In this document: positions 48,158-50,054 of the stretch, one piece after another
How positions within the stretch are numbered: the first letter of the stretch is position 1
Layout: every line of letters starts with the position of its first letter
NCBI GenBank assembly: GCA_009845995.1
Contig: VXYK01000046.1
Coordinates: forward strand, 95,547-159,546
DNA length: 64,000 bases
Reading direction: 5' to 3'
Source: Acidimicrobiaceae bacterium
GTDB lineage: Bacteria > Actinomycetota > Acidimicrobiia > Acidimicrobiales > Aldehydirespiratoraceae
The notes under the pieces: generated by a model
The model's input: only the letters and a program-made list of their open reading frames with translations
Told to the model about the DNA's origin: nothing
Databases searched by the model: none
Program-made: the position numbers and the translations under genes

Positions 48158-49411
48158 TCACTCGGGGCGCCGAGCGACGGCAAGCTGGCCAGCGAAAGCT
48201 GTGTTGAGCACACTGCGCCGGGTGGTTTCGATCTGTTCCAACGCAGTCGAGAGCACATAATCAGTCGCGTCTAGCCGGGAGAAGTGCTCCTCAATCGCCG
48301 AAACGATCCTTTCTCGTTCGCGGCTTGGCGCAAGCACGAACGGAACACTCGCCATTCGTTTCTTCGAGATCTCCTTGAACGTCGTTCCGCTGGCCATTTC
48401 ACGGATAGCAGGCGTTGCGTAACGAAGATACCAATAAACATACCGTGAGCCGATCCCTTCGGGAGGGATAAGGCTCTTGAATCCTTGGTTCGTACATAGA
48501 GGCTGAGCCGCGATCGCGGCATAGCCAATCGGCGCCCGCGATGAGAACAGCACCGCACCCTTTGGCAATAGATGTGTGGAGGTCGATTCGTAACCAGTCA
48601 AGGTGATTGTGCGACGCCCTCGCGCTATCTCGACTCCGTCATGATTAGAGAGGTCTTCTGGTGTCACCCATGGAATCTCACCGCCCCAAAAAACTGGCTC
48701 TTTGGTCCTTGGTGTTGCGCCGCCCACAATCTCGAAGATCTTGCCGAGTGTTGTTAGGGTCCAGCCTCGGGGGAGGTCACTCGGTGTGTGTGTGTGTGTG
48801 TGTGGCTCGTCGTCAGCGTCTTGACGTACAAGCTGGCCGGTGAACGCTGCGTTCAGCACGCTACGCCGGGTCACCTCGATTCGGTCTAACGCGGTTGAGA
48901 TCGAATCCTCAGCCGCGTCGAGGTGGGAGAAGTGCTCTTCGATTGTGGCGACTATTCGTTCCTGCTCAGCGAGCGGTGGCACCTCCAGGGCATAGTGGCG
49001 CATTTGACGCCACTTGAGGCGAGGCCGGTCGCCTGTGCTTCTCCTCTGAGCGAACTTGACAAACCTCGAACTCAAGAGTTGGTACTGAAGGAATTTCGGC
49101 ACGAGTGCCTGCGATGGCGGCAAGACGATTAGCTCGGCCGAACCGAGCGCTTCACGGTCGACCCTAGCGACCTTGTTTAGGTACGGACGCAAACGTGCGT
49201 AGGCGATGTCTCCGGGCGACAGTTCAACCGATTGCGATCGGTAGTCGCTCGCGCATTCCCATCCGTCGATACGACCTACCTCACCAGCGATGTTATCGAG
49301 CGAGAGGTAGGGGCGCGCGTCATCCTCTGCCGGAACGACCTTGCCCACTCTTGGAGTACACAGATCGCCAAGATGAGCTATCACCCAGCCGGGGGGTAGG
49401 TCGGTGGTCAT
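48158..49411 (-). CDS. hsdS: Type I restriction-modification system specificity subunit (two TRDs)
   Basis: LPPGWVIAHLGDL... and LPRGWTLTTLGKIFEIVGG... start the two TRDs. The conserved helices are duplicated: EQERIVATIEEHFSHLDAAE...TRRSVLNAAFTGQL and ERERIVSAIEEHFSRLDATD...TRRSVLNTAFAGQL. Confidence 0.9.
   Translation of the reverse strand: MTTDLPPGWVIAHLGDLCTPRVGKVVPAEDDARPYLSLDNIAGEVGRIDGWECASDYRSQSVELSPGDIAYARLRPYLNKVARVDREALGSAELIVLPPSQALVPKFLQYQLLSSRFVKFAQRRSTGDRPRLKWRQMRHYALEVPPLAEQERIVATIEEHFSHLDAAEDSISTALDRIEVTRRSVLNAAFTGQLVRQDADDEPHTHTHTPSDLPRGWTLTTLGKIFEIVGGATPRTKEPVFWGGEIPWVTPEDLSNHDGVEIARGRRTITLTGYESTSTHLLPKGAVLFSSRAPIGYAAIAAQPLCTNQGFKSLIPPEGIGSRYVYWYLRYATPAIREMASGTTFKEISKKRMASVPFVLAPSRERERIVSAIEEHFSRLDATDYVLSTALEQIETTRRSVLNTAFAGQLAVARRPE
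48784..48804. repeat. (GT)10G / (CA)n dinucleotide microsatellite inside hsdS
   Basis: The plus strand reads gtgtgtgtgtgtgtgtgtgtg (21 nt). On the coding strand it reads CCA CAC ACA CAC ACA CAC ACA CCG, encoding P-H-T-H-T-H-T-P between the central conserved helix and TRD2. Confidence 0.95.
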
Positions 49412-49782
49412 GAGGGTAGCGAGTCGATGAGGACACGGCCGCCGGTGCGCGCCTCGATCCGCAACTCGTGGCCTTCGAGCAAGGCCATGCCTACGAGCGG
49501 CGTGGTCTCGGCTGCATCCACGAGCACAGCGACCATCTGACCGTCCCAGACAAGTTCGGCATCGTAGACATCAAAGGCGATCTCACTGCCATCCGCCAAC
49601 CTGGCACTGCCTTGGTGCTTGCGAGTCAGGCCAAGCTCGCTCACCCGGTCAGGCGGCAGCGTGAGAAACTCGCTGTAATCGGTGTCAACTACTGCCTCAA
49701 TGGTGCACGGCCGTCCTCCAGGCCGTTGGACATCGAGGGACAGAGTCGCTTCGAGTCGTGCGTCGACACGGCCTTCGATCAC
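49408..49782 (-). CDS. Retropepsin-like (clan AA aspartic-protease-fold) small protein, DTD variant
   Basis: 124 aa. IEAVVDTDYSEFLTLPPDRVSELGL...ARLADGSEI...PLVGMALLEGHELRIE follows the bacterial/archaeal single-domain retropepsin pattern (DTG[AF]..L.LP...LGL; LLGmd.L). Its start makes a GTGA overlap with the upstream gene, and its stop an ATGA overlap with the hsdS start. Confidence 0.6.
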   Translation of the reverse strand: MIEGRVDARLEATLSLDVQRPGGRPCTIEAVVDTDYSEFLTLPPDRVSELGLTRKHQGSARLADGSEIAFDVYDAELVWDGQMVAVLVDAAETTPLVGMALLEGHELRIEARTGGRVLIDSLPS

Positions 49783-50054
49783 TCAGAGTCCCGCAGCGGG
49801 CGGCCACCGAGGTTGATCAGAGTGCGGTGACCGACGCGCAACATCCACACGTCACGTGCGTCCGGCCACCGTTCGTATAGTTCATCGATGGAAGCACGCC
49901 GCGTTTCGGCAATCGTCCAGCAACCAGTGTTCACGTCAATGGAGACATAGTGACCATGCTTGCTGTCGTCTAGCGCAGGTTTGATGTCACGTTCGTAGAT
50001 CTCTTCGCCACGCCGGCCTGTTTCCTGGCGATCATTTCGAATCCCAATTGCCAC
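49779..50054 (-). CDS. Small hypothetical protein, partner of the retropepsin-like gene
   Basis: 91 aa. GTG start with GGGAGG 8 nt upstream. ...KHGHYVSIDVNTGCWTIAETRRASIDELYERWPDARDVWMLRVGH... Confidence 0.55.
   Translation of the reverse strand: MAIGIRNDRQETGRRGEEIYERDIKPALDDSKHGHYVSIDVNTGCWTIAETRRASIDELYERWPDARDVWMLRVGHRTLINLGGRPLRDSE

What the first reader, a model, noticed from the sequence alone, without database searches (positions are those of the whole stretch)
49408..50054. Small protein plus retropepsin-like protein start/stop-coupled into the type I R-M operon between hsdR and hsdS
**Seen:** A 91-aa ORF has a GTG start at 50054 with GGGAGG 8 nt upstream. Its stop overlaps the GTG start of a 124-aa ORF (GTGA). 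The stop of that ORF overlaps the hsdS ATG (ATGA at 49408-49411). The three genes are therefore consecutively coupled. The 124-aa protein reads ...TIEAVVDTDYSEFLTLPPDRVSELGL...ARLADGSEI...PLVGMALLEGHELRIE.

**Established:** This is the layout of single-domain bacterial/archaeal clan AA (retropepsin-like) proteins, which carry DTG[A/F] followed by L.LP and a later LLGmD.L motif. The catalytic Asp (D33, codon at 49684-49686) is kept, but the Gly of DTG is Asp here. Canonical type I operons contain only hsdR/M/S, sometimes with an anticodon nuclease.

**Inference:** The pair could be a two-gene accessory module, such as a toxin-antitoxin-like or protease-based regulator or effector, that acts with or rides on the R-M system. 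I know of no described defence or R-M accessory system built on this pair.
Basis: partly seen in the sequence, partly recalled or inferred. Interest (0 to 1): 0.7.

Follow-up and report, generated by a model that had tools for sequence, protein, structure and literature searches.

The report
Retropepsin-like gene pair inserted in restriction operon
The two small genes between hsdR and hsdS are one copy of a widespread, unstudied two-gene cassette (a small protein plus a retropepsin-like protease) that behaves like a toxin-antitoxin-type hitchhiker and was inserted into the restriction operon, and this copy carries a probably disabling active-site change.

Summary
On the minus strand, hsdR is followed by a 91-aa gene (SM), a 124-aa gene (ASP) and hsdS, joined by GTGA and ATGA overlaps.

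ASP is a retropepsin-like protein: TIGR03698 E 2.6e-14, and a confident model that matches retroviral proteases. SM has no known family or fold.

The pair is an autonomous cassette, not an R-M subunit.
- In 74 of 79 genome loci an SM gene overlaps ASP by exactly 4 nt.
- No ASP (0 of 91) lacks SM, while 7 of 98 SM lack ASP.
- Immediate neighbours are heterogeneous.
- Copies occur several times per genome, once as an 8-unit tandem array.
- Copies sit on cyanobacterial conjugative plasmids, including Nostoc PCC 7120.

Only one group of Acidimicrobiia type I loci has the pair between hsdR and hsdS.
- A related genome keeps hsdR-ATGA-hsdS with no pair.
- Two loci keep duplicated hsdR 3' ends flanking the pair.
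- So the pair was inserted, and the coupling to hsdS was probably inherited from the hsdR-hsdS junction.

The window's ASP alone reads DTD instead of DTG, so it is likely impaired.

My best reading is a toxin-antitoxin-like module: a protease effector held in check by SM. This is inferred, not shown. I found no publication on the pair.

The parts
50174..53071 (-). hsdR, the type I restriction subunit (965 aa). Its 3' end (...CTCGCCGCATGA) is the ancestral junction with hsdS.
   Evidence: PADLOC REase_I E 2.7e-39. Pfam ResIII, Helicase_C and EcoEI_R_C on the called gene. 72-94% identical to HsdR in related loci.
50055..50173 (-). hsdR-SM intergenic region. It holds a conserved promoter-like block, TTGGAG (50120-50115), 18 nt, TAGGAT (50096-50091), and the Shine-Dalgarno GGGAGG (50068-50063).
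   Evidence: The block is conserved in window, L002, L003, L005, L007 and L069 even though SM and ASP have diverged. The sigma-70 consensus scan did not call it, and no terminator was found. Reading it as a promoter is my inference.
49779..50054 (-). SM, a 91-aa small partner protein with a GTG start. I propose it is the inhibitor or antitoxin of ASP.
   Evidence: No Pfam, NCBIfam, PADLOC or PHROG family. Large family: 1406 clusters at 50% identity. AF2 pLDDT 76: helix 4-27, a beta-beta-alpha-beta core, and a conserved disordered GGRPLR tail. No PDB relative by sequence or fold.
49408..49782 (-). ASP, a 124-aa retropepsin-like (clan AA) protein with a GTG start inside the GTGA overlap. The motif reads D33-T34-D35 instead of DTG (D35 codon 49680-49678).
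   Evidence: TIGR03698 E 2.6e-14, 53.4 bits against a cutoff of 57.35. AF2 pLDDT 93.3. Foldseek top hits are XMRV, HTLV-1 and EIAV proteases and Rickettsia APRc. G35 is conserved in every homologue examined.
48158..49411 (-). hsdS, the specificity subunit (417 aa, two target-recognition domains). Its ATG lies in the ATGA overlap with the ASP stop. No Shine-Dalgarno is visible, so translation is probably coupled.
   Evidence: PADLOC Specificity_I E 4.7e-56. Sequence read. The same ATGA junction with hsdR is seen in L006, L041 and L012.
44103..45581 (-). hsdM, the methyltransferase. It lies about 2.6 kb from hsdS, separated by a second cargo slot: a PhdYefM/PIN pair on the + strand and two unknown ORFs.
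   Evidence: PADLOC MTase_I E 1.4e-183. Gene table with Pfam hits. The cargo in this slot differs between related loci.

Best explanation
SM and ASP are one copy of an autonomous, horizontally mobile two-gene cassette that behaves like a toxin-antitoxin (addiction or abortive-infection type) module.

**Proposed mechanism (inferred)**
- ASP is a cytoplasmic retropepsin-like aspartic protease that would act as a homodimer.
- SM is made just before it by translational coupling and is proposed to bind and block it, possibly by placing its conserved disordered C-terminal tail in the substrate cleft.
- Loss of SM would free the protease to cleave cellular targets.

**How it reached this locus (mostly shown)**
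- In one group of Acidimicrobiia type I loci the cassette was inserted into the ancestral hsdR-ATGA-hsdS junction.
- It now lies on the path of hsdS expression.
- The ATGA coupling of ASP to hsdS is probably inherited from the hsdR-hsdS junction, not evolved for a joint function.

**This copy**
- It carries G35D in the catalytic DTG motif and is probably catalytically impaired, meaning a decaying or neutralised module.

**Shown:** fold, pair conservation, insertion evidence, distribution, uniqueness of DTD.
**Inferred:** protease activity, inhibition by SM, toxicity.
For: **Fold and family**
- TIGR03698 E 2.6e-14.
- AF2 pLDDT 93 with a retropepsin fold.

**Strict pairing**
- In 74 of 79 loci SM ends in a 4-nt overlap with ASP: GTGA 55, ATGA 13, TTGA 6. 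The other 5 are adjacent.
- 0 of 91 ASP genes lack an upstream SM, while 7 of 98 SM lack a downstream ASP.
- In L006, SM is intact and ASP is frameshifted.

**Stoichiometry hint**
- Fused SM-SM proteins (about 202 aa) are still followed by one ASP. This fits a dimeric protease.

**Autonomy and mobility**
- At least 496 loci occur in GTDB genomes across several phyla. Several genomes have two or more copies.
- 136 immediate neighbours fall into 119 Pfam families, none found more than 4 times. Neighbour strand is random.
- Copies lie on cyanobacterial conjugative plasmids next to ParDE or RelE genes. The upstream 90-aa protein there is homologous to SM (hhalign probability 98.4%).
- One genome has an 8-unit tandem array in which the SM C-terminal half and the ASP loops are the variable parts.

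**Insertion into the hsd operon**
- Empty site in L006: hsdR at 86.7% identity, joined directly to hsdS.
- Direct repeats of the hsdR 3' end flank the pair in L041 (83 nt) and L012 (65 nt). The downstream copy ends in GCCGCATGA, where the ATG is the hsdS start.
- HsdR (72-94%) and HsdM (84-90%) are more conserved than SM (41-92%) and ASP (51-94%) across the hsd loci.

**Impaired copy**
- DTG is present in all 92 homologues in the genome loci and all 23 aligned database homologues. The window has DTD through a single G-to-A change.
Against: - No experiment shows toxicity, proteolysis or SM-ASP binding. I could not run a complex prediction.
- SM has no recognisable DNA-binding domain of the kind most type II antitoxins carry.
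- To my knowledge no aspartic-protease toxin has been described in TA systems.
- The loci were ascertained through ASP, so the orphan asymmetry is partly biased.
- The pair also lies inside three different methyltransferase-based defence operons: type I R-M, BREX-1, and a DUF499/DUF1156/helicase operon. That could mean a functional link rather than hitchhiking.
- dN/dS below 1 in the window lineage shows the genes were not simply decaying, at least until recently.
Confidence: 0.55

Rival explanations
1. The pair is a functional accessory of methylation-based defence systems. One version: a protease switch that degrades a restriction or defence subunit during establishment (restriction alleviation). 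Another version: a second-line abortive-infection effector triggered when the R-M system is attacked.
For: - The hsdR-SM-ASP-hsdS order is kept in at least 11 Acidimicrobiia loci even though SM and ASP have diverged widely.
- A crude NJ tree places the hsd-embedded pairs in three places.
- Pairs are also embedded in BREX-1 between pglZ and pglX, and between the DUF1156 methyltransferase and the helicase of a DUF499/DUF1156 operon.
- A small retropepsin-domain protein is reported as an accessory of type III CRISPR loci in Sulfolobales (PMC3973734).
Against: - About 70 of the 80 best loci have no hsd gene nearby. Their immediate neighbours are mostly housekeeping or metabolic genes, and only a handful of the 136 match PADLOC.
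- An orthologous hsdR-hsdS operon works without the pair.
- The flanking duplications mark an insertion.
- The same defence operons also hold ordinary TA cargo such as PIN and RelE/ParE genes. That is the usual pattern for hitchhikers.
- The NJ tree has no support values.
Confidence: 0.2
2. The pair is a non-toxic protease plus its substrate, chaperone or pro-protein. ASP would process SM, or a protein recruited by SM, for a regulatory or stress function with no addiction or defence role.
For: - The conserved disordered SM tail (RVGxRxLxxFGGRPxR) could be a cleavage site rather than an inhibitor.
- Bacterial retropepsin-like enzymes with physiological roles exist, for example the secreted Pseudomonas enzymes in bioRxiv 10.1101/2025.03.18.643919 (listed).
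- Most Chloroflexota copies sit among metabolic genes.
Against: - Housekeeping genes do not usually show multi-copy, patchy distribution across phyla, plasmid carriage, tandem arrays of diverged copies, orphan SM copies, and decayed ASP copies.
- No third partner gene is conserved.
Confidence: 0.15
3. In this particular window the pair is an inert remnant. ASP was inactivated by G35D, and the genes persist only because hsdS translation depends on reading through them.
For: - DTD is unique among about 115 homologues.
- hsdS has no Shine-Dalgarno of its own and starts in the ATGA overlap.
- Related copies show decay: the L006 frameshift and a truncated second SM copy in L003.
Against: - Both ORFs are intact, and the same sequence is fixed in 11 contigs from several samples.
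- dN/dS against L001 and L002 is 0.2-0.45.
- The effect of G35D on activity rests on knowledge of HIV-1 protease mutagenesis and was not tested here.
Confidence: 0.3

Closest known systems
TIGR03698 / COG5550 'clan AA aspartic protease, AF_0612 family' (prokaryotic single-domain retropepsin-like proteins)
   Same: About 120 aa, DTG[Y/F] followed by LTLP and a later VGMxLL motif. HMM match E 2.6e-14 over nearly the full length. NCBI names close homologues 'clan AA aspartic protease'.
   Different: The window copy scores 53.4 bits, below the curated cutoff of 57.35, and has DTD. The family itself has no known function ('little is known', PMC2642776). I found no description of its obligatory SM partner.
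Retroviral retropepsins (XMRV 3sm1, HTLV-1 2b7f, EIAV 1fmb) and Rickettsia APRc (5c9b)
   Same: Same fold. TM-score about 0.55-0.62 normalised to the query. Catalytic Asp-Thr in the same loop. Presumably homodimeric.
   Different: Sequence identity is only 13-20%. Retropepsins are cut out of polyproteins. From my own knowledge, APRc is membrane-associated. ASP is a stand-alone, apparently cytoplasmic protein with a dedicated upstream partner.
Type II toxin-antitoxin modules
   Same: Two small co-directional genes with a 4-nt overlap. Multi-copy, patchy across phyla, carried on conjugative plasmids, and inserted in defence operons beside VapBC or ParDE genes. The putative toxin is never found alone, while the partner sometimes is.
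   Different: No toxicity or neutralisation data. SM has no known antitoxin DNA-binding fold. To my knowledge an aspartic-protease toxin would be new. Tandem arrays of eight pairs are unusual.
PrrC/RloC-type cargo embedded in type I R-M operons
   Same: Extra genes sit between hsd genes and are transcribed with them.
   Different: From my own knowledge, PrrC works with its R-M partner and is linked to it. Here an orthologous operon lacks the pair, and most family members are not near hsd genes.
Small retropepsin-domain protein of Sulfolobales type III CRISPR loci (Saci_1895; PMC3973734)
   Same: A roughly 100-aa retropepsin-domain protein encoded inside a defence locus.
   Different: I did not test its homology to ASP or whether it has an SM-like partner. 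It is archaeal and CRISPR-linked, not R-M-linked.

Membership tests
Clan AA retropepsin-like protease (TIGR03698 subfamily) | Profile match at or above the curated cutoff | tested here: not met
   53.4 bits against a cutoff of 57.35, although E is 2.6e-14 over model positions 4-105 of 107. Pfam Asp_protease_2 gives only 17.2 bits.
Clan AA retropepsin-like protease (TIGR03698 subfamily) | Retropepsin fold | tested here: met
   AF2 pLDDT 93.3, pTM 0.82. Foldseek PDB top hits are XMRV, HTLV-1 and EIAV proteases, Ddi1 RVP and APRc.
Clan AA retropepsin-like protease (TIGR03698 subfamily) | Catalytic D-T/S-G motif | tested here: not met
   The window reads D33-T34-D35. All 92 homologues in the genome loci and all 23 aligned database homologues read DTG.
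Clan AA retropepsin-like protease (TIGR03698 subfamily) | Homodimer with aspartic protease activity | not testable with these tools
   Needs biochemistry.
Type II toxin-antitoxin system | Two adjacent small co-directional, translationally coupled genes | tested here: met
   GTGA overlap in the window. Exact 4-nt overlap in 74 of 79 loci.
Type II toxin-antitoxin system | Mobile, multi-copy, patchy distribution, including plasmids | tested here: met
   At least 496 loci across several phyla, with several genomes holding two or more copies. Cyanobacterial conjugative plasmids carry the pair. Neighbours are heterogeneous.
Type II toxin-antitoxin system | Antitoxin with a DNA-binding domain that autoregulates the operon | tested here: not met
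   No HTH, RHH, AbrB or Phd family hit in SM or in 55 homologues. No structural relative in PDB. Autoregulation itself was not testable.
Type II toxin-antitoxin system | Toxin arrests growth and the cognate antitoxin neutralises it by binding | not testable with these tools
   Only indirect evidence: ASP is never found without SM (0 of 91), while SM is sometimes alone (7 of 98).
Dedicated type I R-M accessory (PrrC-like) | Located inside an hsd operon | tested here: met
   hsdR-SM-ASP-hsdS in the window and in at least 10 related loci.
Dedicated type I R-M accessory (PrrC-like) | Family-wide co-occurrence with hsd genes | tested here: not met
   Only 9 of the 80 best loci, and these are orthologous Acidimicrobiia operons. 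An orthologous hsdR-hsdS junction lacks the pair.
Dedicated type I R-M accessory (PrrC-like) | Physical or functional interaction with Hsd subunits | not testable with these tools
   Needs genetics or biochemistry.

The most novel reading that the evidence does not exclude
SM-ASP is a previously unrecognised family of protease-based toxin-antitoxin or abortive-infection modules, the first with a retropepsin-like aspartic protease as effector. Under this reading:
- It spreads as a cassette of about 0.9 kb that lands just downstream of host genes and duplicates 50-240 nt of their 3' ends.
- It can build arrays of diversified units.
- It repeatedly settles inside methyltransferase-based defence operons (type I R-M, BREX-1, DUF499/DUF1156), where it may add a second layer of defence.
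Probability: 0.35. Interest if true: 0.8.

Novelty: new variant of a known kind. Interest (0 to 1): 0.6.

Why it matters
- **A family function for an unexplained protein group.** If the pair is a protease-based addiction or defence module, it adds a new effector chemistry (an aspartic protease) to toxin-antitoxin and abortive-infection biology. It would also give the prokaryotic single-domain retropepsin-like proteins (COG5550/TIGR03698) a function. They have had none since their first description.
- **It is testable now.** The pair is present on a plasmid of the model cyanobacterium Nostoc PCC 7120.
- **A caution for annotation.** Tight start/stop coupling inside a defence operon can be inherited from an insertion site. 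It does not have to mean a shared function.
- **An unexplained route of spread.** The 3'-end-duplication signature and the tandem array point to a way that small cassettes spread in sponge-symbiont genomes, and that route is not yet understood.

Tried and rejected
**Searches that found nothing for SM**
- Pfam, NCBIfam, PADLOC and PHROGs gave no significant hit for SM or 55 homologues. The best were weak DUF5678 matches in 3 of 55 (best E 0.015) and a faint precomputed DUF8093 hit.
- PDB gave nothing for SM by sequence or by fold.

**Literature**
- Seven full-text searches found no paper on the pair.

**Phage origin**
- No homologue in INPHARED phages or IMG/VR contigs. I dropped the phage-borne idea.

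**Conserved third partner or defence-island enrichment**
- The 136 immediate neighbours were heterogeneous, and only a handful hit PADLOC. I rejected this for the family as a whole.

**Conserved cassette ends**
- I looked for an att-like or attC-like element between the genes and the flanking repeats. No common sequence was seen.

**Promoter and terminator scan**
- No sigma-70 consensus promoter was called. No terminator lies between hsdR, the pair and hsdS. I found the conserved TTGGAG-18-TAGGAT block only by alignment.

**RiPP precursor plus protease**
- Considered and rejected. The SM C-terminus is conserved rather than hypervariable, and no modifying enzymes are linked.

**Sequencing error as the cause of DTD**
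- Rejected, because the identical protein is on 11 contigs.

**Monophyly of the hsd-embedded pairs**
- The NJ tree suggests three placements, but it is crude and unsupported. I treat this as unresolved.
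Full report
**1. What is in the window**

All genes below are on the minus strand.
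- hsdR runs 53071-50174.
- A 119-nt spacer follows.
- A 91-aa gene, here called SM, starts at GTG 50054 and ends at 49779. GGGAGG lies 8 nt upstream of the start.
- A 124-aa gene, here called ASP, runs 49782-49408. Its GTG sits in a GTGA overlap with the SM stop.
- hsdS runs 49411-48158. Its ATG sits in an ATGA overlap with the ASP stop.

hsdR, hsdS and hsdM (45581-44103) match type I models strongly (Pfam hits). hsdM lies 2.6 kb beyond hsdS. A PhdYefM/PIN pair and two unknown ORFs fill the gap.

**2. The two proteins**

ASP
- It matches NCBIfam TIGR03698 (clan_AA_DTGF) at E 2.6e-14 over almost the whole model. The score of 53.4 bits is just under the curated cutoff of 57.35.
- An AlphaFold2 model built on 24 homologues is confident: pLDDT 93.3, pTM 0.82.
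- Its best PDB matches are retroviral proteases (XMRV, HTLV-1, EIAV), Ddi1 and Rickettsia APRc. The retropepsin fold is established.
- The catalytic loop reads D33-T34-D35.
  - In an alignment of 23 database homologues, G35 is conserved in all but the window.
  - All 92 homologues in 80 genome loci read DTG[Y/F].
  - The change is a single GGT-to-GAT transition.
  - The identical protein is on 11 contigs from several samples, so it is real.
- From published HIV-1 protease mutagenesis (my own knowledge, not tested here), this glycine tolerates little change. The window copy is probably catalytically impaired.

SM
- It has no hit in Pfam, NCBIfam, PADLOC or PHROGs. Neither do 55 homologues scanned one by one. 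Only weak DUF5678 matches appear, in 3 of 55 (best E 0.015).
- The family is large. There are 1653 hits at 90% clustering and 1406 clusters at 50% identity. All inspected members are named 'hypothetical protein', apart from two evidently spurious JGI names.
- The AF2 model (pLDDT 76) shows a long N-terminal helix, a small beta-beta-alpha-beta core, and a disordered C-terminal tail. The tail is conserved in sequence: RVGxRxLxxFGGRPxR.
- No PDB relative was found by sequence or by fold.

**3. The pair is a conserved, autonomous cassette**

A scan of one genome per GTDB species found at least 496 ASP-encoding loci. The best 80 were fetched.

Pairing
- In 74 of the 79 loci that include upstream sequence, an SM homologue ends in an exact 4-nt overlap with ASP: GTGA 55, ATGA 13, TTGA 6. 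The other five are adjacent.
- None of 91 ASP genes lacks an upstream SM. Seven of 98 SM genes lack a downstream ASP.
- In L006, SM is intact and ASP is frameshifted.
- About 200-aa proteins made of two fused SM domains exist. They are still followed by a single ASP with the 4-nt overlap. That arrangement suits a dimeric protease.
- Remote SM members in Acidobacteriota and another lineage also precede a 118-125-aa gene.

Hosts and contexts
- Hosts are mostly sponge-associated Chloroflexota (Dehalococcoidia) and Acidimicrobiia. Latescibacterota, Planctomycetota, Acidobacteriota and a gammaproteobacterium also appear. Several genomes hold two or more copies.
- The 136 immediate neighbours of 68 non-hsd loci fall into 119 Pfam families, none present more than four times. 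Their strand is random (39 of 68 co-directional on each side). Only a handful match PADLOC models.
- The pair also sits on cyanobacterial conjugative plasmids, including pCC7120alpha of Nostoc PCC 7120, next to ParDE or RelE genes. The upstream 90-aa protein there is homologous to SM (hhalign probability 98.4%).
- No homologue was found in phage genomes or viral contigs.

**4. Why it sits in the R-M operon**

Only 9 of the 80 loci have hsdR directly upstream. Two more such loci came from other look-ups. All that carry a taxon label are Acidimicrobiia, and their operons are orthologous to the window's.

Three observations show an insertion.
- **Empty site.** In L006 an intact hsdR, 86.7% identical to the window's, ends ...CTCGCCGCATGA. 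The ATG in that sequence starts hsdS directly. This is an hsdR-ATGA-hsdS junction without the pair.
- **Flanking duplications.** In L041 and L012 the pair is flanked by direct repeats of the last 83 nt and 65 nt of hsdR. The downstream copy still encodes ...ELTLALAA* and ends in GCCGCATGA, where the ATG is the hsdS start.
- **Uneven divergence.** Across these loci HsdR (72-94%) and HsdM (84-90%) are much better conserved than SM (41-92%) and ASP (51-94%). A free-standing pair (L004) nests among the hsd-embedded ones.

The ATGA coupling of ASP to hsdS in the window is therefore most simply a legacy of the ancestral hsdR-hsdS coupling. The duplicated hsdR tail has since been lost. This last step is my inference.

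A conserved block upstream of SM, TTGGAG-18 nt-TAGGAT, may be a promoter for SM-ASP-hsdS. The consensus scan did not call it and found no terminators within the unit.

**5. Most likely mechanism**

The gene order, the strict coupling, the rule that ASP is never without SM, the SM-SM fusions, the multi-copy and plasmid distribution, and the decayed copies all fit a toxin-antitoxin-like module. In this reading ASP is the effector protease and SM is its inhibitor. The conserved disordered SM tail is a candidate pseudo-substrate.

In an 8-unit tandem array in a Dehalococcoidia genome (L062), the units share 90-95% identity at the nucleotide level from the ASP 3' end through the SM 5' half. At the protein level, mean pairwise identity drops to 38-61% in the SM C-terminal half. 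It drops to 27% and 43% in two ASP segments, residues 51-60 and 81-90. This is what co-diversification of an interface would look like.

None of this is experimental. Toxicity, proteolysis and binding are all inferred. I put 0.55 on this reading.

**6. Rivals**

- **Functional accessory of methylation-based defence (0.2).** Pairs are also embedded in a BREX-1 operon and in a DUF499/DUF1156/helicase operon on Nostoc plasmids. Small retropepsin-domain proteins accompany type III CRISPR loci in Sulfolobales (PMC3973734). Against this stand the family-wide neighbourhoods, the empty site, and the ordinary TA cargo sharing the same operons.
- **Non-toxic protease-substrate pair (0.15).** This does not fit the mobile, multi-copy, decaying pattern.
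- **This copy is inert (0.3, compatible with the main reading).** It would be kept only because hsdS translation runs through it.

**7. Known versus new**

The ASP family is catalogued (COG5550, TIGR03698) but has no known function (PMC2642776). I found no paper describing its obligatory partner or the pair.

I class the finding as a new variant of a known kind: a TA-like cassette with an unprecedented effector type. It should not be filed as a type I R-M component.

**8. An unexplained extra**

In several unrelated loci the cassette lies just after a co-directional gene. The last 50-240 nt of that gene, stop codon included, are repeated on the far side of the cassette.
- Examples are metH in L100 (232 nt, 96% identical), hsdR in L041 and L012, and other genes in L065, L071/L043 and L074.
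- In L100 a third copy of the metH end follows a different two-gene cassette.
- I saw no conserved cassette ends.
- Campbell-type integration of a circular intermediate carrying a piece of the host gene would produce this pattern. I could not test that.

Noticed in passing
window 48784-48804 (hsdS, minus strand); L083, L084: A (CA)n dinucleotide tract encodes the His-Thr repeat in the central spacer of HsdS. Its length differs between samples. L084 has 12 nt more than the window (in frame, +4 aa). L083 has 10 nt more, which shifts the frame and gives a 214-aa half HsdS. This looks like phase or specificity variation of the type I system.
   Followed up: partly
window 54326-55288 (+), with the unknown 392-aa gene at 53083-54261 (-): A gene matches aGPT-Pplase3 (E 3.5e-65) and ADDT amino-acid:DNA transferase (E 7e-54). 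From my own knowledge these families are phage thymidine-hypermodification enzymes. Here the gene is in a bacterial chromosome, 1.2 kb from hsdR.
   Followed up: no
window 45582-48157; L041 9171-10943; L092 4289-5335; L095 7416-9188: The stretch between hsdS and hsdM is a second variable cargo slot in this type I locus. The window holds PhdYefM/PIN plus two unknown ORFs. L041 has a 590-aa ORF in the same position as the 590-aa SLFN_AlbA_2/HATPase_c_4 protein of L095. L092 holds an SDH_protease/NfeD protein.
   Followed up: partly
L062 6075-13091 (Dehalococcoidia bacterium OZ253489.1): A tandem array of eight intact SM-ASP pairs (period about 752-793 nt), each with a GTGA overlap and DTG. The ASP 3' end, spacer and SM 5' half are 90-95% identical between units. 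The SM C-terminal half and two ASP segments are highly diverged.
   Followed up: partly
L100 3752-5903; L041 7529-8497; L012 7506-8477; L065, L071, L043, L074: The cassette is flanked by direct repeats (48-240 nt) of the 3' end of the upstream co-directional gene, stop codon included. In L100 the metH 3' end occurs three times, separated by the SM-ASP pair and by a different two-gene cassette. The mechanism is unknown, and I saw no conserved cassette ends.
   Followed up: partly
L103 4708-5345 (Nostoc sp. MS1 pNSMS101); L107 11196-11830 (Nostoc cf. commune pANSO36B): The same pair lies inside a BREX-1 operon between pglZ and pglX. It also lies between the DUF1156 methyltransferase and the helicase of a DUF499/DUF1156 operon that holds PIN, RelE/ParE and Uma2 cargo as well.
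   Followed up: partly
L006 6900-15200 (Acidimicrobiales bacterium OZ220692.1): A decayed copy of the window-like locus sits directly upstream of an intact hsdR-hsdS operon that lacks the pair. The decayed copy holds an hsdR fragment, an intact SM, a frameshifted ASP, a stretch 86% identical at the DNA level to the window's PhdYefM/PIN region, and an hsdM fragment.
   Followed up: partly
window 56997-57613 (-) and 46784-47545 (+): Two further VapBC-type pairs (RHH or PhdYefM antitoxin plus PIN toxin) flank the R-M locus. The region is a TA and defence island.
   Followed up: no
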